DNA from: a virus
Taxonomy: Duplodnaviria > Heunggongvirae > Uroviricota > Caudoviricetes
DNA length: 64,000 bases
Virus record (IMG/VR): IMGVR_UViG_2925891887_000001
Strand: one strand, 5' to 3'
Under the pieces are notes generated by a model that saw nothing but the letters and a program-made list of their open reading frames with translations, did no database searches and was not told the DNA's origin. The position numbers were made by a program, and so were the translations under genes. Positions 448 through 53,636 of the stretch are shown here, piece by piece; position 1 is the stretch's first letter; each line of letters begins with the position of its first letter.

Positions 448-462
448 ATCATGATAATCCAA

Positions 463-951: not shown

Positions 952-1096
952 CTACAGTATCCGACCTTAGTTATCAATTGAAAAGCCTACAAATATCGTT
1001 CAGCCAATCAAGAAATTTTTTCAGCCGGAGGTATGTACTTCAAAAAATGTGATGAATGTCACATGCAGGTGCTCTCATACACCTGCATGTAGACTA

Positions 1097-1673
1097 TTAA
1101 TCATTCAATAATCTATATTTTCTTTTGATTAAATCTTCACCTTTTTTGGTGAACACAAAACCAAATTGCGATTTTTTGTTCAGCCTAAGGACTCTGTTAT
1201 CCAACGCATCGGTTGATGGAATCAATGTTTGATCATCTATCCAATTAAGTAGCGTAAGAAAGTTCAGCAGCCTCAACGTTGTTGTGCGAAGCTCTTTCGA
1301 TATATTTTCAATGCTGGCAATTCGTCTTTCTTTTTTCTCAGGTGGTACAGATAATTGTTCTTGAGGTTTCGTGGGTAGATAATCAATTTCGTTTGCTGAA
1401 TCGAATGATATGTGTGGCGTAATTTTGCTAAAAAAGCCTTTCGCTGACTCACTTGATAATAAACCAGACCTATTCATATCGTTTGTTATTCTGTACAGGA
1501 GTGGACTGTGTTTCATTTCAGGATAACGTTGATAAAAGTTAAGCAATTCAAAAGCAGCATTAGCACCAACAAGAAAATCAGAAGGATCGCTGACTTTCCA
1601 GAAAGAATGATTTTTCTTAGCGCCAGTGGTGTCAACAAATGATAATTCTTTTAACCAACTCATGATGTGCTCC
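1097..1673 (-). CDS. Hypothetical protein
   Basis: ORF track 1097-1696; start moved to ATG (MSWLKEL) preceded by AAAGGAG on minus strand; inverted repeat at about 1059-1090 lies just downstream. Confidence 0.45.
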
Positions 1674-1728
1674 TTTCTAACAAGTGAGCACATCATAGAA
1701 TTAGTAGATAGGGGGTAAATATGAAATG

Positions 1729-2007
1729 TTACGGCAACCTGCTCAGTATTTCCTCTAGATCTTTTTTTGTCATATTGGAGTTCTCATAGATGCGCATGAT
1801 TTTCTCACGCGTCTTAGCGGAAACCCCAACGGCAGATGTGACTTTGTCAAATTCAGCCATAGTCATCGTCTCCAGAATGGCATTGATAACTTCAGCCTTA
1901 GACATCTTGATTTTTTTCTCTTTGAGTTTTATTTGAAATTTTCCAAGTTTTTCATTGGCCTTATCAGACAATGCCACTTGGCAATAAGTTGTTTTCTTTT
2001 CGCTCAT
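1729..2007 (-). CDS. Hypothetical small protein
   Basis: 92-aa ORF tightly packed between neighbours; Lys/Glu-rich. Confidence 0.4.
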   Translation of the reverse strand: MSEKKTTYCQVALSDKANEKLGKFQIKLKEKKIKMSKAEVINAILETMTMAEFDKVTSAVGVSAKTREKIMRIYENSNMTKKDLEEILSRLP

Positions 2008-2009
2008 AA

Positions 2010-3569: not shown

Positions 3570-3633
3570 AAACCTCTTTCCTTAGTGCCTTTTGTATGTT
3601 ATTTGGCTATTATAATAAGTAAGTGATTACTTA

Positions 3634-4332: not shown

Positions 4333-5000
4333 TGACCAAAAAGTTTGAAATCGTATATCGCGACCCGGCAGATCTTATTCCCTATGAGATGAATGCCAAA
4401 AAGCATGATGAACAGCAGATCCGAGATCTGGCCGCAGCCATTAAAAAGCGCGGATTTGACCAGCCAATTACGGTCGATAAGAACGACGTAATTATTACTG
4501 GCCACGGCCGCCGTGAGGCTGCAATTTTTGCTGGACTTGAGCGCGTACCGGTTATTGTTCGCGATGATCTCAGTGATGACGAGGTTCGTGCGAAGCGCCT
4601 TGAAGATAACCGACTTGCCAGCATTGATTACGATGCAATTAAGCTACAGAAAGAGCTTGAGTCGCTTGTTCTGGACGATATCGAGGTTTTCGGCTTTGAA
4701 GAGCGTGAGTTGAATGTTCTCGTTGGCAGTATGACAGAAGAAATGGACACCGACTCGCTAGTTATCGATCTTGGCGAAGAAACTAAACGACAGAAGGATG
4801 AACACACCGTGATCAGTCGTGAAGTTGCAGCGGAAGAAGTACGTGTTGTCGACGTATTGGGCTTTAAAACGCTCCCTGCTGGCTCTGCCATTGTTGTTGG
4901 TGATTTGCTTGCCCACATGGAAGAAATGACGGGAGAAAGCGGGGTAGACGCATTTGTGGCATATGCGGAGAAGATCTCTTCCGGGGAGATGGCTGCATGA
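4332..5000 (+). CDS. ParB-like nuclease domain protein (second copy)
   Basis: ParB N-terminal-like motif (ITGHGRREAAIFAGLERVPVIV); ATG overlaps upstream stop (TAATG) with AAGGAG upstream; track ORF begins 4299. Confidence 0.55.
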   Translation: MTKKFEIVYRDPADLIPYEMNAKKHDEQQIRDLAAAIKKRGFDQPITVDKNDVIITGHGRREAAIFAGLERVPVIVRDDLSDDEVRAKRLEDNRLASIDYDAIKLQKELESLVLDDIEVFGFEERELNVLVGSMTEEMDTDSLVIDLGEETKRQKDEHTVISREVAAEEVRVVDVLGFKTLPAGSAIVVGDLLAHMEEMTGESGVDAFVAYAEKISSGEMAA

Positions 5001-5635
5001 GCAAATACATCATCAACGTATCGTTTCAGACACGCGTAAATAAAACCACGCGCACGTTGGAAATCGCTGAGTCGTTCGGGCTTGGCCTGGACGAAAAAGA
5101 GTGGACGCTTTACGACAATCTGGAGCTGGAAGTGAAGCAGGGCGATGTGGTGTACATTACCGGCCAATCCGGTTCCGGCAAATCCGTTGTGCTGCGCGAG
5201 CTGCAACACCAGATGAAGGATGAAGGGCTATCTGTGGCCTCCATCGATGATTTTACCTTCGATAATGAGGTTAACGTCATTGACCAACTGGGCAAAACTA
5301 CCAGTGATGCGCTTGGGTTGTTATCTATGGCTGGTCTGAACGATGCATATCTGTTTGTTCGCAAGCCTTCTGAAATGTCAGACGGTCAGAAATATCGTCT
5401 CAAGATTGCCAAACTGATTGAGTCAGGCGCTAAAGTGTGGGCTGCTGACGAGTTCGGCGCTGTTCTCGACCGTGTAACCGCTCAGGTTGTGGCATCTAAC
5501 CTCCAGCGTGCCGCTCGAAAGGTTGGTGCGACGGTAATGGTGGCGACGACTCACGAAGACCTGAAGAACGCGCTGCGCCCGGATATGCAGATCACCAAGC
5601 ACTACAAAGAACGCGTGAAGGTGGAATATGCCTGA
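4997..5635 (+). CDS. ABC-type ATPase domain protein
   Basis: Walker A GQSGSGKS, ABC signature-like SDGQKYRL, Walker B VWAADEFGAVLD, H-loop TTHE; stand-alone 212 aa. Confidence 0.6.
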   Translation: MSKYIINVSFQTRVNKTTRTLEIAESFGLGLDEKEWTLYDNLELEVKQGDVVYITGQSGSGKSVVLRELQHQMKDEGLSVASIDDFTFDNEVNVIDQLGKTTSDALGLLSMAGLNDAYLFVRKPSEMSDGQKYRLKIAKLIESGAKVWAADEFGAVLDRVTAQVVASNLQRAARKVGATVMVATTHEDLKNALRPDMQITKHYKERVKVEYA

Positions 5636-5882
5636 TTTGAAGATCGTAGAGCTGAAGCCATCGAAAGAGACTGATAACAACAACGTGGAAGTCATCCGCC
5701 TGCTGGAAGAAGCACTTCAGCACGCCAGAGAAGGAAAAAGCCAGAGCCTGGCGCTGTTGATGATCAACAACGACGGCAGTGTTCTTGATTGCTGGCATAA
5801 CGGCGGGCGCCCGTATGTCATGGTAGGGGCGATGGAGTCTCTTCGCCTGGATTTCATCAATGCCAATATCGAGCGCAGGTGA
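5628..5882 (+). CDS. Hypothetical protein
   Basis: 84-aa ORF overlapping neighbours (operon-like coupling). Confidence 0.4.
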   Translation: MPDLKIVELKPSKETDNNNVEVIRLLEEALQHAREGKSQSLALLMINNDGSVLDCWHNGGRPYVMVGAMESLRLDFINANIERR

Positions 5883-6778
5883 TCGAGATGGCAGATATCA
5901 TCATCAAACGCTACCGCCCTGAAGAGTTTCCGCGTCATCTGGACTTTCTGGAGCGAATGACTGTCACAAAGGGAACTGTAGAGGACTGGCACGCTCTTAA
6001 GTCGCTTCACTACAAAACAGACGGCAAACCTTTCGCGCCAACTTACTATCGCTGCGAACTTGATGACCGTCTGGTGGGCGTCGTGGTTATGGCTTACCCG
6101 AAACTACTGCTGGCACCTCGCCACCGCATGTTTCCTAAGTTGAAACCAACCACTAATACCACCGTGGCTAACCAGTACTGGGGTCGGTACGTGAATAACA
6201 ACTTTGCGGTGATCAGTCGCTCAGTTGTGGATACTCAGTATCGTGGCGTAGGCGTCTCTTATCGAATGATTAACCTGGTTAGCAGGATGCATGACCGGCC
6301 AATCATTGAGATCCAGTCCTCGATGAGCAAATACAATCCCTTCGCCATGAAAGCAGGGTTTAAGTTCATCCGCCCTGAGCGACCGAAGAGCTATGAAAGT
6401 GCACTGCGTGTATTCCAGCGCCATTTCCGTTCCGACCCGGGTGATAACGAGGCGATCGTCAAAGAGTTGTTCGCAATGAGCGAGTCTCGTCGTCGCCGTG
6501 CACTGCGTGATCTGGTGGCGGACTACCACAAGAACAGTTCCCTGGCAAAAGCTGGGCGGAATCGTGGCACGACGATTCAGGACATTGCCGACAGTCTGGT
6601 GGACGAGGCCAGCATTGTGAAGCTGCTCAAGGACATTCACAACCTGAGCTTTACGTCTCCGTTGTATGGTGTGTACCGAAACCCTGACTTTGGCCGTCGA
6701 CTGCCTGACACGCTGCCACTGCTGGCATTCGACAAACAACCTTTGGATAAACCGTTAGAAATTGCTTTACCGGCATAA
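5879..6778 (+). CDS. GNAT-like acetyltransferase domain protein (tentative)
   Basis: R-x-x-G-x-G-like motif YRGVGVSYRMI typical of GNAT acetyl-CoA binding; 299 aa. Confidence 0.35.
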   Translation: MIEMADIIIKRYRPEEFPRHLDFLERMTVTKGTVEDWHALKSLHYKTDGKPFAPTYYRCELDDRLVGVVVMAYPKLLLAPRHRMFPKLKPTTNTTVANQYWGRYVNNNFAVISRSVVDTQYRGVGVSYRMINLVSRMHDRPIIEIQSSMSKYNPFAMKAGFKFIRPERPKSYESALRVFQRHFRSDPGDNEAIVKELFAMSESRRRRALRDLVADYHKNSSLAKAGRNRGTTIQDIADSLVDEASIVKLLKDIHNLSFTSPLYGVYRNPDFGRRLPDTLPLLAFDKQPLDKPLEIALPA

Positions 6779-6787
6779 GGATTTGCC

Positions 6788-7054
6788 ATGACGTTAACCG
6801 ATAAACAAAAGGACATCATCAAAACGCTCAATCTCGGTTATGAGCGAGGTCATCTACTTGACCTGGACGAATTGCTTGAAGTTTTGCCGTACAAGACAAC
6901 CAAGCAAAGTATCCAGTTCTCAATTCGCGCTCTGATAAAAAAGGGGCTGGTGGAGAAAGGGCATACGCGCCAACGCAGTGACAATCGCTATCACCGCCGA
7001 ACTCTTGGGTTAACTACTTTAGGTCGAGCCAAAGCGAAGTTACTGGTGATGTAA
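6788..7054 (+). CDS. Small putative DNA-binding protein
   Basis: 88 aa, basic C-terminus, winged-helix-like segment (SIQFSIRALIKKGLVEKG). Confidence 0.35.
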   Translation: MTLTDKQKDIIKTLNLGYERGHLLDLDELLEVLPYKTTKQSIQFSIRALIKKGLVEKGHTRQRSDNRYHRRTLGLTTLGRAKAKLLVM

Positions 7055-7135
7055 TCGGTCTGGGAGCTTATTTAAAGACCTGCTTCTGTATATATAAATA
7101 ATAAGTAACTTATTAAATATATACGGAAGCAGGCT
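7055..7135. repeat. Near-perfect palindrome (~58 bp core); one copy of an inverted pair with 41728-41810
   Basis: gacctgcttctgtatatataaataataagtaacttattaaatatatacggaagcaggc; reverse complement recurs at 41728-41785 with about 2 mismatches, and the tttaaaga flank is also shared. Confidence 0.8.
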
Positions 7136-7249
7136 TCGTAAGACATGCCAGACCTAATTAAACACCCCAGAAAACAAGTTGGTTAGCAGATGCAGTAAAC
7201 AAGTTGTTTTAGAGCGCATGGACGCGCTCTGTGTGTTTTAGAGGGATCT

Positions 7250-7882
7250 ATGACGGTCGAAAAAGACGAGGTAAAAACTCGCCTGACACCAGCGGAGTGG
7301 GCCGAAGCTGAAGCCAAATGGACGTCAGGCGAATATACACTCTCAAAGCTGGAGGAAGAGTACGGCATTCGTCGTGAAACACTCTCCAGACATTTCAAAA
7401 AGCGAGGATTAGAGAAAGGCGCGGACTCTGTTGGGAAGATGGTTCGTGAGTCTCTTAAATCTGACGCAGAGCTTCGCGCTAAAGCCCGTGCGGAAAAGAT
7501 AGAAGAACGTCGTACACGTTATGACGGCTGGGCGTATGCGTTGGGGCAGATGGTGATGGTCGAAGTCACTACGGCCAAACGTGAGGGTAAGCCTTTAGGG
7601 GCGATTGAGGATTCTCTCAAGAGCTTACAGAGAGCCAGTAATACCCTTGCAAAATGCTTTGAAGTTTCGTCCAAAGCATTGGGCATGGATCATGCGGAAA
7701 ATGACGAGGAAGAAATTCCGAACCTGGTATTTGGTGAGCTTACGCCTTCCCAGGTGGCGAAATTACGTCAGGAAGACGACGAGCCTGAAATCATCGATGA
7801 CGAATTGCTTGAGACGTTGGAAGAAGAAGCTCTAAGCGAATTTGATGCGACAGATGATGGAAGTGAAGGGGAGGACGAATAA
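7250..7882 (+). CDS. Terminase small subunit (putative)
   Basis: Immediately upstream of large terminase; N-terminal HTH-like segment (YGIRRETLSRHF), acidic C-terminus; GAGG RBS. Confidence 0.6.
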   Translation: MTVEKDEVKTRLTPAEWAEAEAKWTSGEYTLSKLEEEYGIRRETLSRHFKKRGLEKGADSVGKMVRESLKSDAELRAKARAEKIEERRTRYDGWAYALGQMVMVEVTTAKREGKPLGAIEDSLKSLQRASNTLAKCFEVSSKALGMDHAENDEEEIPNLVFGELTPSQVAKLRQEDDEPEIIDDELLETLEEEALSEFDATDDGSEGEDE

Positions 7883-9138
7883 TGGCAATCCCGTCCTCGC
7901 TCAGTCTTGTGCAACTGCATTCTGGACAGATGAAAGTCTTCCAGTCTCCGCATCGATTTAAAGTTGTTTGTGCTGGTCGACGCTGGGGAAAATCCCGGTT
8001 GTCGATCTCCACTATTATTCGTGCGGCGGCAAAGGAAAAAAAGCAAAGGGTCTGGTATGTCGCTCCTACTTACCAGATGGCTCGCCAGATTTTGTGGGAC
8101 GATCTACAGGAAGTTCTGCCTCGTAAGTGGGTTAGGAAAAAGAACGACACCACGATGACAATCGTGTTGAAGAACGGTTCGGAGATCGCCCTCAAAGGTG
8201 CTGATAAGCCTGACACTCTGCGCGGCGTAGCGTTGCATTTTGTAGTGCTTGATGAATTTCAGGATATGAAGGCTGACACCTGGTACAAGGTGTTACGACC
8301 TACTCTTTCATCGACACGCGGCGGTGCACTGATCATTGGTACGCCAAAAGGCTTCTCGGAATTTCACAAACTGTGGACTATAGGCCAGAACGTAGAGCTG
8401 CAAAGAAAGGGACAGTGGAAGAGCTGGCAGTTTGTAACTGCCGATTCTCCGTTTGTGCCTACGGCGGAAATTGAAGCTGCTAAGAACGATATGGACCCCA
8501 AATCGTTCGCTCAGGAGTACCTGGCCAGCTTTGAGAACATGTCCGGGCGCGTTTACTACCCGTTCGATCGTAACGTGCATGTAAAACCGCTTCAGTTCAA
8601 CCCTCGGTTGCCTATATGGGTAGGGCAGGACTTCAACATTGACCCGATGTCTTCAGTAATTTTGCAACCTCAGCCAAATGGTGAGCTATGGGCAATTGAT
8701 GAATTGGTGCTCTTTTCCTCTAACACGGCAGAAGTTTGTGATGAGCTTGAGAGACGCTTCTGGCGCTGGAAATCACAGGTAACGGTATTTCCAGATCCGG
8801 CAGGTGCTTATCGCCAACATGCTCGTGGGGAGTCTGACGTAGACATATTCAAAGAGAAGGGATTCTTACGTGTCGATTATTCGAAAAAGCACCCGCCAAT
8901 TGCGGATCGTGTTAATGCTGTTAACCGAATGCTGATGTCCGCATCTGGAGATATCCGGCTGTATATCGATCCGAAGTGCAAGCATTTGATTGATTCACTG
9001 GAAAAAGTCATCTACAAGCCTGGAACACGAGATATGGATAAGACAGGTGGCATTGAGCATAGTGCAGACGCATTGGGCTATCCAGTACATCGTAGGTATC
9101 CAGTCAAAAACCGTGTTATTCTTGGTGGTTCTCGATAG
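7882..9138 (+). CDS. Terminase large subunit
   Basis: Walker A VVCAGRRWGKS, Walker B-like VLDEFQDM, C-terminal nuclease-like region; 418 aa. Confidence 0.85.
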   Translation: MAIPSSLSLVQLHSGQMKVFQSPHRFKVVCAGRRWGKSRLSISTIIRAAAKEKKQRVWYVAPTYQMARQILWDDLQEVLPRKWVRKKNDTTMTIVLKNGSEIALKGADKPDTLRGVALHFVVLDEFQDMKADTWYKVLRPTLSSTRGGALIIGTPKGFSEFHKLWTIGQNVELQRKGQWKSWQFVTADSPFVPTAEIEAAKNDMDPKSFAQEYLASFENMSGRVYYPFDRNVHVKPLQFNPRLPIWVGQDFNIDPMSSVILQPQPNGELWAIDELVLFSSNTAEVCDELERRFWRWKSQVTVFPDPAGAYRQHARGESDVDIFKEKGFLRVDYSKKHPPIADRVNAVNRMLMSASGDIRLYIDPKCKHLIDSLEKVIYKPGTRDMDKTGGIEHSADALGYPVHRRYPVKNRVILGGSR

Positions 9139-30313: not shown

Positions 30314-30406
30314 TGGTGGAAAAAAAATTTTATATCGGTAAAAATAGGTAGGTATATACTTAATGGCGGGCAAGGATAGCCCGCCAAATCAAGGAGCATA
30401 TTCAAC

Positions 30407-40011: not shown

Positions 40012-41718
40012 ATGGAATCGATAGAAGTATTTTTAAAAAATTTTTTGGACTCAGATCATCGGGTTGCTGTCATAAAAGGAAATTGGGGAGTAGGTAAAAC
40101 GCATTATTGGAATAGCTTTTATACTAAACATTCTAAAAAATTAGATTTTAATGCATATTCATATGTTTCTTTGTTTGGAATAAATTCTATTGGAGACATT
40201 AAAAAAGCTCTTTATCATTGTGCCACACCAATTAATGAAAAGAAATATAAAGAACTGATTTTATCTGAAACGGATCGAACTATGATTCGTTATAGAAATG
40301 GGTTTTGGGGATGGTTGAAATACAACTCCTTGTCAAAATTTATAATACATTTTGGAAAGAACGATTTTTTTGGGTTCAAAACTGATAATCTGCTGTCATC
40401 TCTTGAGTATAAATTTGTTAATAATTATTTGGTTTGCATTGATGATATTGAACGAAAAGGTAGTGCGCTAGAAATTAAAGAGATTATGGGGGTAATTGAT
40501 GAGTTGGCAAGAAGAAAAAATTGCAAGGTTGTTCTAATATTAAATGAAGATAACTTACATGAAGAAACTGCACAACAACAGTTTTTAGAGTATAGAGAAA
40601 AAATAATTGATGTGGAAATAAAATACGATCCCACGCCTGAGAAAAACTTAAGAAAAGTTTTTTATGAGACTGACCCTGATTTTCTTTTGTTAAAAAACCT
40701 AGCAAATGATTTAAACATCAAAAACATTAGAATATTAAATAAAATAAAATCATCTCTAGTTATATTTAGAGATGTGCTAAAGTTAGCAGAGGATAAGGTT
40801 AGAGAAAGTTTTATTAATAGATTGGTCTTATTTTCAGTGGTTTACTATTTTGGTGTTCCTAGCGTTGATTATGCTTCATTTAAGGAGTCAATCAAAAATA
40901 TACATGCATTCGACTATATGTTAGATGATAAAGATGAAAAGGAAGAAGTTAACTCTGTATATTCATTTGTTAATAGCCTTGATGTTATTTATGAACGAGC
41001 AGAAAGTGCTTTCGATGATGATATAGATTTTTACCTTAAGAACGGTTATGTTTCTTCTGAAAGCAATATTCTAAATATAATAAAAGAAAAAAATGAACAA
41101 TATAGAGATAATAGGGTTTTATGTGAGGTTTATAAAATTTGGGATGTTTTTAGAAACTCTTTTAAAGATAATGAATCAGAGTTTATTTTTCAAATTGAGC
41201 GCGTAATTAACGATAGTCTGTTGCGTATACCAATTGGACAGTTCGTAGGTTTAATAAATGTCCTAATTAAATTGGATAGAGATTGTAATAATATTATAGA
41301 GGCATATGCAGATGCTTTTGTTAATAAAGACAATGCGTATGCTACATTTAATTCTTTGCGAGTAGAGATCTTCGGAAATGAAGAATTAGGTTTCAGAATT
41401 GAAAAAAAATTGAAAGATAGAAATCCAGATGACTATAACTTAGATAAAATTATAAAAAAAATAGCTGGTGGAAGATTTAACCATAGTGATGTGAATATTC
41501 TTAACAGTTTTTCTAAAGATGATTACGTAAACTGGATATTATCCTGTGATCAGGATGCTTTGAATTTAGTAGAAGAGACTATGCTCAAGTTCAAGGGTAT
41601 GCAACACCCGACAGACGAACAGAAGAGCATCACTGATAAAGCAATAGAAGCTTTGGAGGAAGTTGCTTCAAAATCAACACTTAATAAGCTGCGTGTTAAT
41701 AAAATACTCAATCATTAA
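40012..41718 (+). CDS. KAP-family P-loop NTPase-like protein, low-GC cargo gene
   Basis: Walker A GNWGVGKT and Walker B LVCIDDIER about 120 aa later (KAP-like spacing); strongly AT-rich versus flanks; bracketed by hairpin 39962-39990 and palindrome 41728-41785. Confidence 0.55.
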   Translation: MESIEVFLKNFLDSDHRVAVIKGNWGVGKTHYWNSFYTKHSKKLDFNAYSYVSLFGINSIGDIKKALYHCATPINEKKYKELILSETDRTMIRYRNGFWGWLKYNSLSKFIIHFGKNDFFGFKTDNLLSSLEYKFVNNYLVCIDDIERKGSALEIKEIMGVIDELARRKNCKVVLILNEDNLHEETAQQQFLEYREKIIDVEIKYDPTPEKNLRKVFYETDPDFLLLKNLANDLNIKNIRILNKIKSSLVIFRDVLKLAEDKVRESFINRLVLFSVVYYFGVPSVDYASFKESIKNIHAFDYMLDDKDEKEEVNSVYSFVNSLDVIYERAESAFDDDIDFYLKNGYVSSESNILNIIKEKNEQYRDNRVLCEVYKIWDVFRNSFKDNESEFIFQIERVINDSLLRIPIGQFVGLINVLIKLDRDCNNIIEAYADAFVNKDNAYATFNSLRVEIFGNEELGFRIEKKLKDRNPDDYNLDKIIKKIAGGRFNHSDVNILNSFSKDDYVNWILSCDQDALNLVEETMLKFKGMQHPTDEQKSITDKAIEALEEVASKSTLNKLRVNKILNH

Positions 41719-44024: not shown

Positions 44025-44105
44025 AAAATAAGCGTGGAGAACACCTCCACGCTTGATTCATTGGTGAAACAACTTTTCTTTTGCCAAACCACAAAAGAAA
44101 AACAC

Positions 44106-45287
44106 ATGAGCCTTTATGTTATATCAACATTTAGGTTGGTCACAATATTGCCTGTTAAAAGTGGAATTATCGTGAGCGAGCTGAAAGAGCTAATTGCCGA
44201 ATTAGATTTTGAACAATGGTTGGATACTGAAGGTATCGTTTATCGACGTGGAGGCGTGAGTGCTCGCGGTCGTGAAGTGAATATCAAAGAGTGTCCGGTA
44301 TGCGGCAGCTCCAACTGGAAGGTATATTTCAATCTGACCAGTGGCGTCGGCAAATGCTTCGCTGGTGATCATCCCGAAGAGATTCAGTTCAATAAGCTGG
44401 TCTTCCTCAAGCACTACAGCGGTAAATCACGACGACAGTTCGAGGAATATGTGCAGAACGCTCTTCTTTCCCAGGGGTGGACACCAAAGAAAGAAGAGCT
44501 AGTGCTTGCAAGCACAGTCGAGTTAGAGGGGCCAGTTGCACTCCCTCGTCATTACGAGCTTCCTATAGATGGCCGTCTTCCAGACTATCTGGTTGAACGA
44601 AACATATCACCTGAAATGGCAAAGTATTTTGACCTACGATACTGCGTCGAAGGCAAGCACGCTTATGTAGATCCGTATACAGATCAGGTAAAAGGGCAGA
44701 TATTCGATATGCGAATACTGATACCGGTTTACGATCTGGATGGGGTAATGAAGACATTTCAGGGACGAGACATTACCGGTACAGCAGAACGCCGCTACCT
44801 CTTTCCTATGCAGCTTCCAGCTTCAGGTAAATTTCTCTACAACGGCCATAATGCAGTCGGCAAACAGACTGTAGTTGTCTGTGAGGGTTCGTTCGATGTT
44901 ATGGGGGTCAAACGAGCTATTTTCGACGAAGAAACATTACGTGATTACGTGGAGCCAATAGGAACGTTCGGGATGCATCTATCTGGCAACACCACTCAGG
45001 ATGCAGAAGATCAGTTGGGCGCGTTCCTGACGCTCAAGGCGCGTGGATTACGTAATGTGATCATGATGTGGGATAGTGAAAAGCAAGCTATACGAAACAC
45101 GATGGCCGCAGCCAGGCGACTGACCAGTATTGGTCTTAATGTCAAAGTTGCGTGTTTGGGCGAGGAAGGACTCGACCCCGGCGATGCGACACCGGGGCAG
45201 ATTATCAAAGCCTACTATTGCGCAAAACCTTATTCACGACAGCTTGAACTTTTAAGCAAGGTAAAAGGTATAGCAGCATTAGTTTGA
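44106..45287 (+). CDS. DNA primase (zinc finger + TOPRIM)
   Basis: Zn-binding-like CPVCGSS...KCFAGDH; TOPRIM motifs VVVCEGSFDVMGV and MWDSE; track ORF starts 44034 but includes a hairpin, so start is probably 44106 or 44173. Confidence 0.7.
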   Translation: MSLYVISTFRLVTILPVKSGIIVSELKELIAELDFEQWLDTEGIVYRRGGVSARGREVNIKECPVCGSSNWKVYFNLTSGVGKCFAGDHPEEIQFNKLVFLKHYSGKSRRQFEEYVQNALLSQGWTPKKEELVLASTVELEGPVALPRHYELPIDGRLPDYLVERNISPEMAKYFDLRYCVEGKHAYVDPYTDQVKGQIFDMRILIPVYDLDGVMKTFQGRDITGTAERRYLFPMQLPASGKFLYNGHNAVGKQTVVVCEGSFDVMGVKRAIFDEETLRDYVEPIGTFGMHLSGNTTQDAEDQLGAFLTLKARGLRNVIMMWDSEKQAIRNTMAAARRLTSIGLNVKVACLGEEGLDPGDATPGQIIKAYYCAKPYSRQLELLSKVKGIAALV

Positions 45288-46532
45288 ACCAGTATTAGTC
45301 ACGTAAACATTGACCGAAAATGATTTAACTTCTGTGTTGAAGTTGTCAGTCATTACCGCGAGGTAGGCATTCTTGGTATCTCTGAATTGCTTCAGGATGA
45401 TTTGAACGTTATCGGTGCAAACAAACGAGGTAGCCAGATTGCCTCCTTTCTCTGAAAAATCCTTCAAGAAGGTGCAGTCAACTTTGCCATCATTAGCGGT
45501 GAAGACGGCATCATCACCCTGCCAGGTAAATGTTGCGTTAACGCCTTTATCAATGGATTTAGCAATAAGTCGCTGAGTGTCAGATTTGGCATTTTGCTGT
45601 TTTGAAGGCGAACGGAACGTACCTTTTGCTTTCATTGCAGCAACGTTTTCGCAGCCCGTTTCGTCATCTTTATCGCAAGCAGCTTGGTAAAGCTCTGATG
45701 CTTTCCGATAATCCTGTTTGACGCCCAATCCCTTAAGATACATGTAACCAAGGTGGTTCATGGCATAATCATTTCCTAAGCTGATTGCTTGTTCTAAAAG
45801 ACTTCTGGCCTTCGAATAGTCTTTTTTTATACCTTCTCCATGCATCAACTTGTATCCAAGCGCGCTCATGGCGTTATTATTTCCTAATTCAGCTGCTTTC
45901 AAGTACCACTTAATTGCCTCTTTATTGTTGCGCTTAACAGCAACACCATCGTCGTACATAGAGCCTAGCCCATACATTCCTGCGGCATTTCCACTATCCG
46001 CAGCCTTTTTATAAGATTTAAATGCTTTCTTGTAATCTTTCGGAACTCCCTTACCGTATTGATATAAATATCCCATATAGGCAAGCGAAGGTATATCACC
46101 AGCTTCTACTGCTAGTTTGTGATATTTTAAAGCAGCTTCTGGGTCCTCCTTTCCAGTCCAACCTCGTTCGTATATAACGGCAAGATTATGGTAAGCACTG
46201 CCGTTGCGAGCATTTCCTGCTAGTTTGTAGTACTCAACGGCCTTATTTAGATCTTTATCTACTCCCTTCCCAATTGTGTACATAACCCCAAGCGCATAAT
46301 ATGCTACTTTATCTCCCTTTTCTGCGGCGAGATCGATCCACTTCTTGGCCTCTACTAAATCCTCATCAAAGCCATTAGCCCCATCCAAATAATTTGTCCC
46401 TAACGCACTTTGTGCTGTGGTATCTCCTGCGGTGGCGGCGTCGATCAGCGTTTGTTTATTATCTGCGTTAACGTATCCAGGGCCGAAAAGCAAAGCTAAT
46501 GCCAGCAACGATGAAGGTTTTATGAGTTTCAT
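45279..46532 (-). CDS. Sel1-repeat (TPR-like) secreted protein
   Basis: Signal peptide (MKLIKPSSLLALALLFGPGYVNA), then at least 8 Sel1-like repeats (A..YxLGxMYxxGxGVxxDxxxAxxWYxKAA); only minus-strand gene in this block. Confidence 0.7.
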   Translation of the reverse strand: MKLIKPSSLLALALLFGPGYVNADNKQTLIDAATAGDTTAQSALGTNYLDGANGFDEDLVEAKKWIDLAAEKGDKVAYYALGVMYTIGKGVDKDLNKAVEYYKLAGNARNGSAYHNLAVIYERGWTGKEDPEAALKYHKLAVEAGDIPSLAYMGYLYQYGKGVPKDYKKAFKSYKKAADSGNAAGMYGLGSMYDDGVAVKRNNKEAIKWYLKAAELGNNNAMSALGYKLMHGEGIKKDYSKARSLLEQAISLGNDYAMNHLGYMYLKGLGVKQDYRKASELYQAACDKDDETGCENVAAMKAKGTFRSPSKQQNAKSDTQRLIAKSIDKGVNATFTWQGDDAVFTANDGKVDCTFLKDFSEKGGNLATSFVCTDNVQIILKQFRDTKNAYLAVMTDNFNTEVKSFSVNVYVTNTGSN

Positions 46533-46759
46533 ATTTTATGTTCTGTTGATATAGGATGAACAGTTTAGACGCGGCAAGCGTCAAGTGTGCGAAAAGGGTA
46601 CTTAAATTTAGTTAATCTGTCAGCTTTGATAATTTATGAACTGTAAAGTTGATGTGATATTAATCACTGATGGAAATAATGAGCTATGGAATTATTGTGA
46701 CACGGCTCGTGTTTTGGTTAACTAATACCTACGATAAATATAAATAAAGGGAAGTCAAA

Positions 46760-47173
46760 ATGAGCAAAAAGAAGTTGATTTTAACAGGTGCTTTATTGTC
46801 GTTGTTTGCATTAGTTGGGTGTAAGCCTACAGACGAGAAGGCTATTACTCTGGGCCAACAGGCAATTGCGGATGATATGAAAGATCCCACGTCGGTGATG
46901 TTTAGGAAAGATAAGTTTGTCAGGACTGATCATGATGATGGGAGTGTGACAGGCTTTGTGTGTGGTGAATTAAACGCCAAAAATGGCTTTGGTGCATACG
47001 TGGGCTATCACTCATATGTTGTTGAACTCGAAATGAAGCCAAAGGGCATGTTTTCAAAAGGGGTGGTATACAAAATCCTATCGAAGTCGTTGGCACCTAA
47101 TGATCCTCATGATTTACAGCGTTATAAGCAGGTCTACAGAAAGATGTGCAACAGTGAGGCTGTAGCTCATTAA
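46760..47173 (+). CDS. Lipoprotein, hypothetical
   Basis: Signal peptide plus lipobox (LSLFALVGC); 137 aa. Confidence 0.5.
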   Translation: MSKKKLILTGALLSLFALVGCKPTDEKAITLGQQAIADDMKDPTSVMFRKDKFVRTDHDDGSVTGFVCGELNAKNGFGAYVGYHSYVVELEMKPKGMFSKGVVYKILSKSLAPNDPHDLQRYKQVYRKMCNSEAVAH

Positions 47174-47298
47174 AGGTGAATGCTGGGCTGAGGATATGCC
47201 CGGCATCTTAGTATAAAGAACTATTGCACCTAAAATGATAAGTAGATACATACTTAAGTTTTTGTAAGAATACTTTCATCCGTTAGCTAGGAGTTGGT

Positions 47299-50749: not shown

Positions 50750-51527
50750 AAACATATTGATAAGTATTTACTTACTTATCTTTTGTGTATAAGATGACTT
50801 TGTTTTCGTTGAGACGCGACTGTTTGAACTTAAATACAAGTGCAAACGAAGAAGTCTATCTGGCAGTAGCCTAATAAGCCAAACACCAGCGAGGTCAGTT
50901 TCCAGCCTCGTTACCGAAATGGGACACACTGAGCGAGTGTGATTGCAGAACGCAGGAGGGAACATTCATGTTCCCTCCGATGAAGTAACAGAATGGGCGG
51001 TTGGTATATTTTCAACTCCATATGACTCCCGGATTCTTAGCCACTGACCGCCCATCCTGTTACGTCATTTTGTTCAATTATGTCGTTTATACTGGGTTAA
51101 AAAGCGGCGACGTAGCCCGGCTGGTATGGTTAGCCAGCACACAACGTTGAGGCCATTACATTTTTATCAATTCTAAGGTTCTATTCACAGAGATACCGGC
51201 GAGCGTTGATATGTAACATGTTGGGCAAACATTCAATCGGAGTAGTGGCCTCAACGTTGTGAAGACGGGATTGTTGTGTAGGTTTAACCACTGTTGCCAT
51301 TGGTGCCTGTTTTCACAACAAATGATTCCATACATCACATTGTATAAATTACAAAGTAGGTGCTGTCCTCAGAAACATCATCTACTTAAAGATTTTGCCT
51401 TCTACTATTGAGCGAAGTCGAAAGCGTCTGGCACTAACGAAAAGTGCAAGTAGCGGTGCGTTTCCTGGCAGAAACTAAACCGTCGCGATTGGCACTGTTG
51501 AGTAATAAATACTGGCAGTGCTGAATT

Positions 51528-51602
51528 GATGGTGTAGCTCAGCGGTAGAGCAGTTGGCTGTTAACCAACTGGTCGGTGGTTCGAATCCACCCACCATCGC
51601 CA
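51528..51602 (+). tRNA. tRNA-Asn (anticodon GTT)
   Basis: Manual fold: acceptor gatggtg/caccatc, D-arm tagctcagcggtagagca, anticodon loop ctGTTaa, T-loop ggttcgaatcc, encoded CCA. Confidence 0.8.
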
Positions 51603-51607
51603 ATTTA

Positions 51608-51694
51608 GGGGAGTTAGTCCGTAGAGGTAGCGGTGTAGACTGTAAATCTACTGTCATGGCGACTCGGGTGGTTCGACTCCATCACTCCCCACCA
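51608..51694 (+). tRNA. tRNA-Tyr (anticodon GTA), long variable arm
   Basis: Acceptor ggggagt/actcccc, anticodon loop ctGTAaa, long variable arm, T-loop ttcgact, encoded CCA; D-arm pairing weak. Confidence 0.7.
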
Positions 51695-51698
51695 AATT

Positions 51699-51774
51699 GC
51701 CGGTTTAGCTCAGTTGGTAGAGCAGTCGCTTTGTAAGCGAATGGCCAGCGGTTCAAGTCCGTTAACCGGCACCA
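51699..51774 (+). tRNA. tRNA-Thr (anticodon TGT), tentative isotype
   Basis: Acceptor gccggtt/aaccggc, D-arm tagctcagttggtagagca, anticodon loop ttTGTaa, T-loop ttcaagt, encoded CCA. Confidence 0.7.
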
Positions 51775-52094
51775 ACACAACAGGTAAGAGCATTGGGCGA
51801 ATCGGCGATACTGACCCACAAGGCCGTAAATCGATAGAGTCAGACCAGTGCTCTTACCGTTGTGAGGAAGTGCAGCTCTTTGAAGCAACCAGAAGATAAG
51901 CATCTGGCTTCACAACACAACGATAATATCATTACGGTTAATCGTCGTTCATGTGCACAATGACTGGTCGAAAGGTAGTGATCTTACCGTTGTGATGAAT
52001 GCACAGGCTGATGTGCCGCAACTACAGTAGTGCGCGCTTTGCGGGGCTTGCTACAACCCTGTGTCGGAGTTCAGCACCGACCATCACAATAGCT

Positions 52095-52181
52095 GGAGAG
52101 TAGGGAGCATGGTGCTCAAGCGGTCTTGAAAACCGTCCCATTGTGCAAACGATGATGGTTCGATTCCATTACTCTCCGCCA
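52095..52181 (+). tRNA. tRNA-Ser (anticodon TGA), atypical D-arm
   Basis: Acceptor ggagagt/actctcc, anticodon loop ctTGAaa, long variable arm, T-loop ttcgatt, CCA; D-arm lacks canonical GG. Confidence 0.55.
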
Positions 52182-52373: not shown

Positions 52374-53636
52374 TTACTTTGCATAGTCGCCCAATTTTAA
52401 TATTTCGCGCTTATATTCATTAACCATGCTACTGGATTCAGTATAAATTCGATTTAAAAGATTATCGTTATCTTTATTTTCATTTATCTTAATTAGTGCT
52501 AATTTATATTCATAGTCATCAAATGCCACAATTAAATGGTGGCCTGGGATTATATCTTCGTCACTCTTAAAGTATATATCTTCAAGTATGTAATCTAGTT
52601 GATTAGATTTTCTTTTCTCGATGTAATCTTCAGCCATAGCTATTACATCATTCCTGTCATTTAACCTGTTTTTTTCGGAAGGCACATCTTCGTAATGTTG
52701 CACGATTGAACAACCAATAAGGCGTGGGATGTAAACGTCAAAATGAGTAACTCTATCATTCGCGGTTTTAAGTAGTTCCTCAAAGTAGTTTCTTACATGT
52801 AAAGGCAACTTCTCAAAGTAATCATTAATTATAGGAGAACAAGGAGTTTTATAATTCATAAGAACCGACGGTACGAGCTTTGGGTGTCGAAACATCCAGT
52901 CCCTTTTAACGTCCGATGGAACATAATAACTTTTAATGATATTATCAAAATAATTTATCATTCGAGATTTGAATATTTTGTTGAATCTAAGGTTTATGAA
53001 TGTATCCAGATAAGGCATATTTGAATAAGCATCATCAAAAAATATTTCATCATTGAAAAAATCATATTTATTCAATAAACAACACAGTTTTTCCGAATTA
53101 ATATGTTCACAATAATCGATTTTTAATCCAAAGATAGCAATGATCAACTTCATCTGAGGTGGGATTTTAAAAATTAATTGTGACACATACGCTCTTTTTT
53201 CCTTGAGACATTCCCCATCAATATAAAATGAACCATCCACATACTCAAATATATTAATAATATGCTTCACATACTGTATTACCTCATGCTGTCTTACCAA
53301 TGGATAATATAGTCTATGTAACTCATCGCTGTTTAAATTAATTTTGTGTTTATCGATAATTTGTTTTGCAAGAAGACATAACTCATCATGTTGATTTAAT
53401 AAGGAATCAAACCATTGTTTAAATGCACTCTTTCGCATTTCGAACAATGATTCAGTTGTTAATTGAAGGGCTGAAAAAGCTGCTTTTGCACTTTTTCTCG
53501 CTTCGTAGGCATTCCATGCTGTTGCTATAAAAGCAAATGCTGTAGCCAATGTTCCAACAGTTTGACCATTTAAAACAACCCAATCCCAAAAAATGACGGT
53601 GAGCAGTAGTATAATAATGAAAATTAAAAAAGGCAT
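52374..53636 (-). CDS. Hypothetical membrane protein, low-GC cargo gene
   Basis: 420 aa; N-terminal hydrophobic segments (FLIFIIILLLTVIFWDWVV; LATAFAFIATAW); strongly AT-rich; only minus-strand gene here. Confidence 0.5.
   Translation of the reverse strand: MPFLIFIIILLLTVIFWDWVVLNGQTVGTLATAFAFIATAWNAYEARKSAKAAFSALQLTTESLFEMRKSAFKQWFDSLLNQHDELCLLAKQIIDKHKINLNSDELHRLYYPLVRQHEVIQYVKHIINIFEYVDGSFYIDGECLKEKRAYVSQLIFKIPPQMKLIIAIFGLKIDYCEHINSEKLCCLLNKYDFFNDEIFFDDAYSNMPYLDTFINLRFNKIFKSRMINYFDNIIKSYYVPSDVKRDWMFRHPKLVPSVLMNYKTPCSPIINDYFEKLPLHVRNYFEELLKTANDRVTHFDVYIPRLIGCSIVQHYEDVPSEKNRLNDRNDVIAMAEDYIEKRKSNQLDYILEDIYFKSDEDIIPGHHLIVAFDDYEYKLALIKINENKDNDNLLNRIYTESSSMVNEYKREILKLGDYAK

What the first reader, a model, noticed from the sequence alone, without database searches (positions are those of the whole stretch)
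45279..47173. Oppositely oriented secreted Sel1-repeat protein and a divergent lipoprotein inside the replication module
A 417-aa Sel1/TPR-like protein with a signal peptide is encoded on the minus strand, converging on the primase gene, and shares a 227-bp divergent promoter region with a plus-strand lipoprotein. Secreted Sel1-repeat proteins commonly act in envelope or host-interaction roles and are atypical for a replication operon, suggesting lysogenic-conversion cargo.
Basis: partly seen in the sequence, partly recalled or inferred. Interest (0 to 1): 0.5.

Follow-up and report, generated by a model that had tools for sequence, protein, structure and literature searches.

The report
Two envelope cargo genes in phage-plasmid
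Two optional genes, one for a periplasmic Sel1-repeat protein and one for an outer-membrane lipoprotein, sit in a swap-prone slot of the replication region of an SSU5/pHCM2-type phage-plasmid; they are real accessory cargo, but their function is unknown and nothing about them is extraordinary.

Summary
A 417-aa Sel1-repeat ORF (45279-46532, minus) overlaps the primase stop by 9 bp. It lies 227 bp from a divergent 137-aa lipoprotein ORF (46760-47173).

The window is an SSU5/pHCM2-like phage-plasmid, 97% identical to phage Cyrano. Cyrano has about 39 bp where this window has a 1,975-bp cassette. Relatives show five states of the same slot: empty, lipoprotein only, Sel1 only, both, or an unrelated 321-350-aa gene. 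So the two genes are independent, optional cargo, not replication or structural genes.

About a quarter of Escherichia elements of this type carry both genes, always on plasmids. A decayed chromosomal copy in E. whittamii keeps only Sel1 intact. dN/dS of 0.05-0.4 indicates purifying selection.

The Sel1 protein has a Sec signal peptide, eight helix pairs and a conserved C-terminal β domain with no known relatives. The lipoprotein belongs to an unnamed family found in cargo slots of several temperate phage types. In two phages the domain is fused to peptidoglycan-binding domains.

Cargo status is shown. Expression in the carrier state and the function are not. My inference is envelope protection, such as superinfection exclusion. 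Interest is modest.

The parts
45279..46532 (-). Gene for a 417-aa secreted Sel1-like-repeat (SLR) protein. It has a signal peptide (aa 1-23), 16 helices forming 8 helix pairs (aa 26-303), a K/S/Q-rich linker, and a C-terminal beta-rich domain (aa ~317-417).
   Evidence: ORF. Pfam Sel1 E 5.4e-56, 7 stretches. phrog_8741, unknown function. AF2 gives pLDDT above 90 for aa 30-300 and 32-57 for the C-terminal part. The closest solved structure is EsiB/c5321 (4BWR), 35% identity over 280 columns.
45282..45584 (-). Codons for the C-terminal ~100-aa domain, predicted all-beta, with two invariant Cys (C353, C372). It is the most conserved part of the protein.
   Evidence: Identity to the window domain is 71-90% across Escherichia, E. 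whittamii, Pantoea, Enterobacter and metagenome copies, against 54-61% for whole proteins. There is no Pfam hit at E<=10 and no PDB profile hit. Only 5 representative clusters matched the profile over its C-terminal-domain positions in the listed hits.
45753..45860 (-). One 36-aa Sel1 repeat (aa 225-260). It is present in this allele and absent from the commoner 381-aa allele.
   Evidence: Alignments. The eight-repeat form also occurs in the E. whittamii, Pantoea, P0125 and P0126 copies.
46533..46759 (.). AT-rich (33% GC) spacer between the divergent genes. Two conserved blocks, 46592-46632 and 46693-46759, are candidate promoter or operator regions.
   Evidence: Block B is partly shared with lipoprotein-only elements. 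Only weak sigma-70-like matches were found: TTGACT-16-TATCGT at 46758-46731 (-) and TTATCA-16-TAAATT at 46632-46605 (-).
46760..47173 (+). Gene for a 137-aa lipoprotein. The lipobox is L-V-G-C21 and residue +2 is Lys, which implies outer-membrane sorting. The mature domain is an alpha+beta roll with a likely C68-C130 disulfide.
47180..47206 (+). GC-rich hairpin just after the lipoprotein stop codon. It is a probable terminator, but the U-tract is weak.
   Evidence: Folding energy -16.4 kcal/mol, z = -2.8. A hairpin of different sequence occupies the same place in the pHCM2-like element L005 (z = -3.0).
45263..47237 (.). The cassette as defined by loss of homology to phages Cyrano and PhiR41_1, which have about 39 bp here.
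   Evidence: Pairwise BLAST and alignments. In the window, DNA similarity fades about 25 nt before the primase stop, although the primase C-terminus is still recognisable at protein level.
47234..47272 (+). Right border of the slot. This conserved element lies ~45 bp upstream of the phrog_4248 gene and is present whatever the slot contains.
   Evidence: Conserved in Cyrano, PhiR41_1, SSU5, the pHCM2-like element L005 and E. hormaechei L024. Its core recurs at 30344 and 50760: 4 matches against 0.02 expected.
44034..45287 (+). DNA primase gene, the left border of the slot. It is context, not cargo.
   Evidence: Pfam DnaG_N and Toprim_2 below threshold, phrog_47 E 6e-62.

Best explanation
SHOWN: the window is an SSU5/pHCM2-type phage-plasmid. 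Its replication region has an exchange-prone slot between the primase stop codon and a conserved promoter-like element. In this element the slot holds two independently acquired accessory genes. The lipoprotein gene with about 45 bp of leader is the older occupant, because it is found alone in Salmonella Typhi pHCM2-like, Enterobacter and Cronobacter elements. The Sel1 gene with about 170 bp of its own upstream DNA was added between primase and lipoprotein. It points the opposite way, and it also occurs alone in the slot in a metagenomic relative. Both genes are intact and the Sel1 gene is under purifying selection. Both products carry export signals. One is a soluble periplasmic alpha-solenoid of eight Sel1-like helix pairs ending in a conserved orphan beta domain. 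The other is a small disulfide-containing alpha+beta protein lipid-anchored to the outer membrane.

INFERRED: both act in the cell envelope of the carrier cell, not in replication or virion assembly. The lipoprotein belongs to a family that sits in classical cargo (moron) slots of several temperate phage types, and in two phages it is fused to peptidoglycan-binding domains. The most likely role of the lipoprotein is therefore to sit at the outer-membrane/peptidoglycan interface and block an incoming attacker, that is, superinfection exclusion at the wall-penetration or DNA-entry step. The Sel1 protein would act as a periplasmic adaptor or decoy that binds a partner through its variable repeats. 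The specific targets are unknown.
For: Identity of the element: 97% to Cyrano and 80% to SSU5 over helicase and primase.

Insertion/deletion and slot states: empty; lipoprotein only; Sel1 only; both; an SSU5_041-like gene.

Order of acquisition: the leader upstream of the lipoprotein gene is homologous to that of lipoprotein-only elements.

Prevalence: 60 of 393 plasmids and 53 of 251 E. coli genomes with the primase, with 0 chromosomal copies in E. coli.

Selection: dN/dS is 0.05-0.41 in all segments where dS could be estimated. The mid-region comparison between the two allele types has saturated dS, so no ratio could be computed there.

Retention of Sel1 alone: the E. whittamii chromosomal island keeps an intact Sel1 gene beside a primase fragment and a frameshifted lipoprotein remnant truncated next to an IS3-family transposase remnant.

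Export signals: read.

Folds.

Lipoprotein family in cargo slots: between ogr and int in P2-like SEN4/SEN5; upstream of the tape-measure gene in enterobacterial siphoprophages; between tail genes K and I in Fraca and AUS531phi.

Fusions: to SPOR (E 7e-16) and to PG_binding_1 (E 7.5e-7).

Composition: cassette GC 42-43% (spacer 33%) against 44-49% for the flanking core genes.
Confidence: 0.55

Rival explanations
1. The Sel1 protein is an orphan immunity protein. It is exported to the periplasm and neutralises a toxin delivered by competing bacteria (a type VI effector or bacteriocin). The phage-plasmid would thereby give its host a competitive advantage.
For: Sel1-repeat proteins are proven type VI immunity proteins: Klebsiella Sel1E against VgrG4 (PMC7108748) and P. 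aeruginosa PA5086-PA5088, which appear among the structural matches (5JKP, 5JJO, 6LCH). The protein has a periplasmic address. The repeats vary while the rest is conserved. Sel1 survives alone in a decayed chromosomal island, as orphan immunity genes do.
Against: There is no effector, vgrG or T6SS gene near any copy examined. Similarity to the known immunity proteins is only repeat-level, and they rank far below EsiB, LceB and LpnE. The best-conserved part is the orphan C-terminal domain, which those immunity proteins are not known to have. No positive selection was detected.
Confidence: 0.15
2. The Sel1 protein is a host-interaction factor of the EsiB kind. It would reach the cell surface or medium and bind a mammalian protein such as secretory IgA, so the cassette would be a virulence or colonisation determinant.
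For: The closest solved structure and closest PDB sequence is EsiB/c5321 of uropathogenic E. coli (E 1.2e-55, 35% identity). EsiB is reported to bind secretory IgA (PMC3735183, listed). Carrier strains come from human and animal guts, including enterotoxigenic strains.
Against: 35% identity is the usual level between any two Sel1-repeat proteins. EsiB's chain is longer (467 residues in 4BWR), and it aligns only to the repeat region (query aa 27-270; 280 aligned columns), not to the C-terminal domain. No route beyond the periplasm is encoded nearby. A 54%-identical copy lies on a Pantoea megaplasmid among metabolic genes. Papers on these plasmids call them devoid of virulence factors (PMC8085198).
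Confidence: 0.08
3. The two genes form one obligate two-component envelope system, in which the lipoprotein anchors or partners the Sel1 protein. They are co-regulated from the shared spacer.
For: They are adjacent and divergent in all seven PLSDB cassette plasmids whose annotation was fetched, and the cassette DNA matches 60 PLSDB plasmids. The same arrangement existed in the diverged ancestor of the E. whittamii island, whose Sel1 is only 60% identical. The spacer contains strongly conserved blocks.
Against: All four combinations occur in the same slot: neither, lipoprotein only, Sel1 only, both. Sel1 occurs alone in Pantoea and stays intact in E. whittamii, where the lipoprotein is destroyed. 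The lipoprotein family is widespread in phages that have no Sel1 gene.
Confidence: 0.1
4. The Sel1 gene matters mainly as a source of antisense transcription into the primase gene. It converges on primase, overlaps it by 9 bp and has no terminator, so it could damp the lytic replication module in the plasmid state.
For: Convergent 9-bp overlap. There is no convincing terminator downstream of Sel1 on the minus strand. The alternative occupant of the slot, the SSU5_041-like gene, is also on the minus strand directly after primase.
Against: The protein is intact in every copy compared and under purifying selection. It is conserved at protein level in non-phage contexts. Elements with an empty slot are maintained and produce virions (Cyrano; PMC9928086).
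Confidence: 0.04
5. The genes are core phage functions (replication accessory, lysis or structural) that merely look odd.
For: They are located inside the replication module. In pHCM2-like elements the lipoprotein gene follows primase by only 44 bp on the same strand.
Against: They are absent from about 75-80% of related Escherichia elements, from SSU5 itself and from the virion-producing Cyrano. Both have export signals. The lysis genes lie elsewhere in SSU5.
Confidence: 0.03

Closest known systems
Phage 'morons' / lysogenic-conversion cargo genes in hotspots of temperate phages and phage-plasmids (for example lambda bor/lom and the P2 old/tin/fun slots)
   Same: Optional genes are inserted between conserved transcription units. 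They show presence/absence and replacement polymorphism at a fixed site, slightly lower GC, a hairpin after the lipoprotein gene, and products addressed to the envelope.
   Different: Expression from the carrier state is not shown and autonomous promoters were not identified. The site lies inside a replication module, not at the tail end or next to att.
EsiB / c5321 of extraintestinal pathogenic E. coli (PDB 4BWR) and other secreted bacterial Sel1-like-repeat proteins (LpnE, LceB, HcpC)
   Same: Tandem Sel1-like repeats forming an alpha-solenoid, with the best sequence and fold match (35% identity, Foldseek E 4.6e-17).
   Different: The 4BWR chain (467 residues) is longer, and it aligns only to the repeat region. 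Here there are 8 helix pairs plus a conserved ~100-aa beta domain without relatives in Pfam or PDB, and the gene is on phage-plasmids. No functional inference can be transferred.
Sel1-repeat type VI immunity proteins (Klebsiella Sel1E; P. aeruginosa PA5086-PA5088)
   Same: Sel1-repeat proteins that protect against toxins delivered by the type VI system; they appear among the structural matches to this protein.
   Different: No neighbouring effector, only distant repeat-level similarity, and an extra C-terminal domain.
Phage-encoded exclusion lipoproteins (T5 Llp, phi80/N15 Cor, Streptococcus phage TP-J34 Ltp)
   Same: A small phage-borne lipoprotein with a predicted outer-membrane address, in cargo positions often beside tail genes. 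Lipobox lipoproteins of this kind block receptor use or DNA entry (established knowledge; papers listed).
   Different: No sequence or fold similarity to them was detected. The family (phrog_2320) is uncharacterised, and exclusion was not tested.
Cystatin / NTF2 / VirB8-like alpha+beta rolls (including latexin and the periplasmic domains of TraE, DotI and VirB8)
   Same: The predicted fold of the mature lipoprotein is a helix packed on a four-stranded sheet plus a C-terminal helix.

Membership tests
Sel1-like repeat (SLR) proteins, Pfam PF08238 | Several tandem 36-44-aa repeats scoring above the Pfam gathering threshold | tested here: met
   185.5 bits against a cut-off of 30.7, with 7 stretches.
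Sel1-like repeat (SLR) proteins, Pfam PF08238 | Alpha/alpha-solenoid fold of paired antiparallel helices | tested here: met
   The AF2 model has 16 helices at aa 26-303 with pLDDT above 90. Foldseek matches 4BWR, 8SXQ, 6OK3, 6DEH and 1OUV at E 1e-13 to 5e-17. This is a prediction, not a solved structure.
Sec-exported periplasmic protein | N-terminal signal peptide with a basic n-region, a hydrophobic core, small residues at -3/-1, and no lipobox Cys | tested here: met
   MKLIKPSSLLALALLFGPGYVNA|DNK is read directly and is conserved in alleles and in the E. whittamii and Pantoea copies. No SignalP-type predictor was available.
EsiB (c5321) orthologue | High full-length identity and the same architecture as EsiB | tested here: not met
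   35% identity over 280 aligned columns of a 467-residue chain, confined to the repeats. The C-terminal beta domain finds no PDB relative.
EsiB (c5321) orthologue | Binds secretory IgA | not testable with these tools
   This needs a binding assay.
Type VI immunity protein (Sel1E / PA5087 type) | Encoded next to its cognate effector or vgrG | tested here: not met
   The neighbours are primase, a lipoprotein and the phrog_4248 gene. No effector lies near the E. whittamii, Pantoea, E. kobei or metagenome copies. An orphan immunity gene would not need this feature.
Type VI immunity protein (Sel1E / PA5087 type) | Neutralises a specific toxin | not testable with these tools
   This needs competition or co-expression assays.
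Bacterial lipoprotein (Lgt/LspA substrate) | Lipobox [LVI][ASTVI][GAS]C after a hydrophobic signal sequence | tested here: met
   L-V-G-C21 in the window. Cys21 is invariant and the position before it is nearly invariant in 65 homologues.
Bacterial lipoprotein (Lgt/LspA substrate) | Outer-membrane sorting (no Asp at +2) | tested here: met
   Residue +2 is Lys, nearly invariant in the family. Localisation itself is inferred from the Lol sorting rule.
Known exclusion lipoproteins (Llp, Cor, Ltp) | Sequence or fold homology to a characterised member | tested here: not met
Known exclusion lipoproteins (Llp, Cor, Ltp) | Blocks infection by a superinfecting phage | not testable with these tools
   This needs plaque assays.
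Phage moron / accessory cargo | Present or absent among otherwise collinear close relatives, at a fixed site | tested here: met
Phage moron / accessory cargo | Own promoter and terminator | tested here: inconclusive
   A hairpin follows the lipoprotein gene (z = -2.8) and the spacer has conserved blocks. Sigma-70 matches are weak and not enriched, and there is no terminator after Sel1.
Phage moron / accessory cargo | Expressed from the repressed prophage or plasmid state | not testable with these tools
   No transcriptome of a cassette-bearing strain was found. Cyrano, which has RNA-seq data, lacks the cassette.
Phage moron / accessory cargo | Base composition differs from the flanking genes | tested here: met
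   GC is 42.8% (Sel1), 42.3% (lipoprotein) and 33% (spacer), against 46.7% (primase), 48.5% (helicase) and 46.2% (ligase). The downstream phrog_4248 gene is 44.3%, so the difference is modest.
Known anti-phage defence systems (PADLOC-DB) | Match to a defence-protein model | tested here: not met
   The only hit is a spurious sub-domain match to PtuA (E 1.5e-4, 0 stretches) for Sel1, and there is none for the lipoprotein.

The most novel reading that the evidence does not exclude
The lipoprotein is the founding example of an undescribed, widespread family of phage-borne envelope proteins. It is anchored at the outer-membrane/peptidoglycan interface and, in other phages, fused to SPOR or PG_binding_1 domains. 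These proteins would block the cell-wall-penetrating step of incoming phage tails or other attackers. The Sel1 protein, with its orphan, highly conserved beta domain and exchangeable repeats, would be a second, independent periplasmic protection module. The primase-proximal slot of SSU5-type phage-plasmids would then be a dedicated hotspot for envelope-level defence cargo.
Probability: 0.15. Interest if true: 0.55.

Novelty: new member of a known kind. Interest (0 to 1): 0.3.

Why it matters
SSU5/pHCM2-type phage-plasmids occur in about 5% of complete E. coli genomes (251 of 5,426) and in Salmonella Typhi, Enterobacter, Klebsiella and Cronobacter. They are usually called cryptic unless they carry resistance genes. 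This work gives three concrete leads. It maps a precise exchange slot with at least five alternative contents. It defines two exported proteins with no known function, one of which has a domain without relatives in Pfam or PDB. And it shows that the lipoprotein family recurs in cargo slots of P2-like, lambdoid and SSU5-like phages. If these proteins alter phage sensitivity, inter-bacterial competition or envelope robustness, they would explain part of the benefit these elements bring to their hosts. As it stands this is an ordinary example of phage cargo with unknown function.

Tried and rejected
(1) Diversifying selection on the central Sel1 repeats. The first comparison showed about 50% amino-acid divergence in aa 107-316 between near-identical flanks. 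Nei-Gojobori counts, however, give saturated dS there and dN/dS of 0.05-0.41 in every segment where a ratio could be computed. One plasmid (L015) is a clear recombinant. The pattern is therefore mosaic recombination between two old allele types (417 aa and 381 aa), not hypervariation.

(2) A known defence system or named family. PADLOC, NCBIfam and Pfam gave nothing specific.

(3) A known fold for the C-terminal domain. The PDB profile search was empty, the AF2 model has low confidence there because the alignment is shallow, and hhalign shows no relation to the lipoprotein.

(4) The exhaustive representative search was partly wasted. My query alignment still contained one Sel1 repeat, so repeat proteins filled the list. 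It shows only that full-length matches to the C-terminal domain are few. Distant relatives of that domain could be hidden below the top 150.

(5) The search for homologous proteins with the C-terminal domain returned only fragments, so alleles were taken from plasmid records instead.

(6) The AlphaFold-database fold library was unavailable.

(7) Structured RNA, flanking repeats or IS ends that might explain insertion. There is no Rfam hit in the cassette, and no meaningful direct or inverted repeats at its borders.

(8) A chromosomal E. coli donor for the divergent central segment. None was found; all 54 places are on plasmids.

(9) Homology between Sel1 and the alternative occupant SSU5_041. 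None.


Full report
OBSERVATION. Both ORFs exist exactly as described. The minus-strand ORF 45279-46532 encodes 417 aa with seven Pfam Sel1 repeats (E 5.4e-56, 185.5 bits against a cut-off of 30.7). The plus-strand ORF 46760-47173 encodes 137 aa with no Pfam family. The Sel1 stop codon overlaps the last codons of the primase ORF (44034-45287) by 9 bp. The two start codons are 227 bp apart, and that spacer is 33% GC.

The Sel1 N-terminus, MKLIKPSSLLALALLFGPGYVNA|DNK, has the features of a Sec signal peptide. The second protein starts MSKKKLILTGALLSLFALVG|CKP, a canonical lipobox with Lys at +2, which implies outer-membrane sorting. I read these from the sequence, because no signal-peptide predictor was available. 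The surrounding genes are a DnaB-like helicase, the primase, two conserved unknowns (phrog_4248, phrog_5055) and an ATP-dependent ligase. Sigma-70-like matches in the spacer are weak and no more frequent than in shuffled sequence.

WHAT THE ELEMENT IS. The region is 96-97% identical to Escherichia phages Cyrano, CMS-2020a and PhiR41_1, and 80% identical to Salmonella phage SSU5. The window is therefore an SSU5/pHCM2-type phage-plasmid. It also carries parA, a tRNA cluster, a tyrosine recombinase and a CobT-like gene, as SSU5 does.

THE CASSETTE IS AN INSERTION/DELETION. Homology to Cyrano and PhiR41_1 stops at 45262 and resumes at 47238. Those phages have about 39 bp where the window has 1,975 bp. 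To the right of the slot, every relative shares a ~40-bp element (47234-47272) about 45 bp upstream of the phrog_4248 gene. The slot was found in five states:
- Empty: Cyrano, PhiR41_1, an E. coli plasmid from Mali and an E. hormaechei plasmid.
- Lipoprotein only, on the plus strand 44-55 bp after primase: Salmonella Typhi pHCM2-like contigs and E. hormaechei AKB48. Cronobacter plasmids also carry a lipoprotein homologue, though I did not inspect its context.
- Sel1 only: a metagenomic contig in which a 57%-identical Sel1 gene overlaps the primase end by the same 9 bp and faces the phrog_4248 gene directly.
- Sel1 plus lipoprotein: the window and 60 PLSDB plasmids, 59 of them Escherichia.
- An unrelated 321-350-aa minus-strand gene: SSU5_041 and an E. 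coli homologue, 56% identical to each other.

The roughly 45 bp upstream of the lipoprotein start codon is homologous between the window and the lipoprotein-only elements. The simplest history is therefore that Sel1, with about 170 bp of its own upstream DNA, was inserted between primase and a resident lipoprotein gene. Since all four combinations of the two genes occur, they assort independently.

PREVALENCE AND SELECTION. The primase segment is found in 393 PLSDB plasmids (220 Escherichia) and in 251 of 5,426 complete E. coli genomes. The Sel1 gene is found in 60 plasmids and 53 genomes respectively, never on an E. coli chromosome.

Two allele types exist. The window's 417-aa form occurs in 5 PLSDB plasmids and 9 complete genomes at 99% identity or more. 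The commoner 381-aa form lacks exactly one 36-aa repeat. Between the types, aa 107-316 are about 50% diverged, while the N-terminal 106 aa, the C-terminal 100 aa and the lipoprotein are nearly identical. This looked like hypervariation, but synonymous sites in the middle are saturated. dN/dS is 0.05-0.41 in every segment where it could be computed, and one plasmid (L015) combines the window-type N-terminus with the other type's middle. The pattern is recombination between old alleles under purifying selection.

AN INFORMATIVE RELIC. In Escherichia whittamii a 60%-identical, intact Sel1 gene lies in the chromosome between yciB and yciA. DNA homology to the window runs from inside the lipoprotein gene, through the spacer, to the end of Sel1 (window 46851-45299, 69% identity). 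It resumes in a primase fragment that is 86% identical in DNA and 88% in protein. The lipoprotein remnant is frameshifted and is truncated next to an IS3-family transposase remnant; the sequence at the break resembles an IS911 end, from my own recall.

This island is thus a decayed piece of a phage-plasmid in which only Sel1 remained intact. That is what one expects if Sel1 benefits the bacterium independently of the phage. Against this 69%-identical stretch, two spacer blocks (46592-46632 and 46693-46759) are almost invariant. I take them to be the regulatory sites, although this is inference. A 54%-identical copy sits alone on a Pantoea megaplasmid. A truncated copy lies beside an IS in a mobile-element region, with phage tail genes nearby, of the Enterobacter kobei chromosome.

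THE SEL1 PROTEIN. AlphaFold2 predicts 16 helices (eight helix pairs, aa 26-303) with pLDDT above 90. These are followed by a K/S/Q-rich linker and a beta-rich domain of seven or eight strands at low confidence. The nearest solved structures are EsiB/c5321 (35% identity), LceB, LpnE, Oxalobacter Sel1 proteins and HcpC. The type VI immunity proteins PA5086-PA5088 appear much lower in the list. All of these align only with the repeats.

The C-terminal ~100 aa are the best-conserved part. Identity to the window domain is 71-90% across genera, against 54-61% for whole proteins, and two Cys are invariant. The domain has no Pfam match even at E<=10 and no PDB relative. NCBIfam gives only sub-threshold repeat matches to MerG, AlgK, MotX and ExoR, and PADLOC gives nothing credible.

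Context is more telling than fold:
- Homologues sit immediately upstream of the tape-measure gene in E. coli and Salmonella siphoprophages, in some cases after a block of KilA-N/Bro-N genes.
- They sit between ogr and the integrase gene in P2-like phages SEN4 and SEN5.
- They sit between tail genes K and I in the lambdoid phage Fraca.
- In Pseudomonas phage AUS531phi the domain is fused to a C-terminal SPOR domain. In Paracoccus phage Pkon1 it is fused to an N-terminal PG_binding_1 domain.

These are classical cargo positions. The two independent fusions to peptidoglycan-binding modules place the domain's site of action at the cell wall.

HOW IT MOST LIKELY WORKS. Shown: there are two optional, independently acquired genes that are exported to the envelope, with Sel1 under purifying selection. 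Inferred: they act on the carrier cell's envelope. For the lipoprotein I favour superinfection exclusion or a related protective role at the outer-membrane/peptidoglycan interface. The grounds are analogy with other phage lipoproteins, its cargo positions beside tail genes and the peptidoglycan-domain fusions. For Sel1 I favour a periplasmic adaptor or decoy whose exchangeable repeats bind a partner and whose conserved beta domain provides the constant function.

The main rival for Sel1 is an orphan immunity protein against periplasm-acting toxins. Sel1E of Klebsiella is a proven precedent (PMC7108748). No effector is nearby, and similarity is only repeat-level. An EsiB-like host-binding role is less likely, because no export route beyond the periplasm is evident and a copy lives on a Pantoea plasmid. 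An obligate two-gene system is contradicted by the independent assortment. A core phage role is contradicted by absence from most relatives, including Cyrano, which produces virions (PMC9928086).

EXPRESSION. Expression is the open point. In Cyrano's carrier-state transcriptome the helicase, primase and ligase genes (CYRAN_31-36) are not among the genes five-fold or more above local background. A lipoprotein transcribed only with primase, as the 44-bp spacing in pHCM2-like elements might allow, would then be expressed with the replication module, which may act in the lytic cycle. In the window the lipoprotein has a 227-bp upstream region with conserved blocks and a hairpin after its stop codon (-16.4 kcal/mol, z = -2.8). 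That is compatible with an autonomous unit but does not prove one. Sel1 has no recognisable terminator and would be transcribed antisense into primase.

COMPARISON AND NOVELTY. The finding belongs to a known kind, accessory envelope genes carried in phage hotspots. The papers I searched do not describe this slot or either protein. No paper holds both 'pHCM2' and 'Sel1', 'Sel1' does not occur in any of the 20 phage-plasmid papers listed, and one survey has no mention of lipoprotein, primase or hotspot. ETEC genome authors call such plasmids cryptic. Public annotation already labels the genes 'tetratricopeptide/Sel1 repeat protein' and 'hypothetical protein'. The new elements are three: the definition of the slot and its states, the orphan C-terminal domain, and the recognition of the lipoprotein family as recurrent phage cargo linked to peptidoglycan. 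I rate this a new member of a known kind, with interest 0.3.

Noticed in passing
window 47234-47272; also 30344-30362 and 50760-50779: A conserved element (AATGATAAGTAGATACATACTTA...TGTAAGAATAC) lies ~45 bp upstream of the phrog_4248 gene. It is present in all SSU5-type relatives whatever the slot contains. Its core, an inverted repeat AAGTA..TACTT, recurs upstream of the 1,432-aa ORF at 30407 and as a palindrome at 50760 (4 matches against 0.02 expected). It is a candidate operator or promoter motif of these phage-plasmids.
   Followed up: partly
window 40012-41718 (+): A 568-aa KAP-family P-loop NTPase (weak nSTAND3 match) lies in a 29-34% GC stretch between the parA region and the replication genes. 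Cyrano, PhiR41_1 and SSU5 have other genes at the equivalent place (DUF2971 or a 255-aa hypothetical). This looks like a second cargo slot, possibly holding a defence gene.
   Followed up: partly
window 52374-53636 (-): A 420-aa minus-strand ORF with no Pfam family lies in a 34-38% GC stretch, directly after the tRNA cluster and before a glutaredoxin-like gene and a tyrosine recombinase. It is another oppositely oriented candidate cargo gene.
   Followed up: no
window 51528-52181 (+): A cluster of four tRNA genes (Asn-GTT, Tyr-GTA, Thr-TGT, Ser-TGA). SSU5 has a tRNA-Asn at the equivalent position.
   Followed up: no
L013 (Escherichia whittamii NZ_JACSQI010000004.1) 4517-7945: This chromosomal island between yciB and yciA is a decayed phage-plasmid fragment. 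It holds IS3-family transposase remnants, a frameshifted 5' remnant of the lipoprotein gene, the conserved spacer, an intact Sel1 gene (60% identity) and a primase fragment (88% aa identity). The sequence at the truncation point resembles an IS911 end (from my own recall).
   Followed up: yes
L003 9289-10254 (-) (SSU5_041) and L022 4490-5542 (-): The alternative occupant of the same slot is a family of 321-350-aa proteins without signal peptide or Pfam domain (56% identical to each other), also on the minus strand directly after primase. Function unknown.
   Followed up: partly
L025 2980-3633 (Pseudomonas phage AUS531phi) and L026 2752-3282 (Paracoccus phage Pkon1): The conserved core of the lipoprotein family (DP.S..F ... 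VCG..NAKN..GAY.G) is fused to a SPOR domain in one phage and to a PG_binding_1 domain in the other. Both genes lie in tail modules.
   Followed up: partly
L007-L012 (E. coli and Salmonella prophages): Lipoprotein homologues of 124-127 aa sit immediately upstream of the tape-measure gene, after a DUF6246 gene or after inserted KilA-N/Bro-N/ORF6N genes. One cluster (P0060) is indexed in 979 blocks of the contig collection.
   Followed up: partly
window 1-3600 (-): The start of the window is 35-37% GC. It carries minus-strand ORFs 463-951 and 1097-1696 (no Pfam) and a 519-aa ResIII/DEAD-box helicase (2010-3569), opposite in orientation to the structural genes that follow.
   Followed up: no
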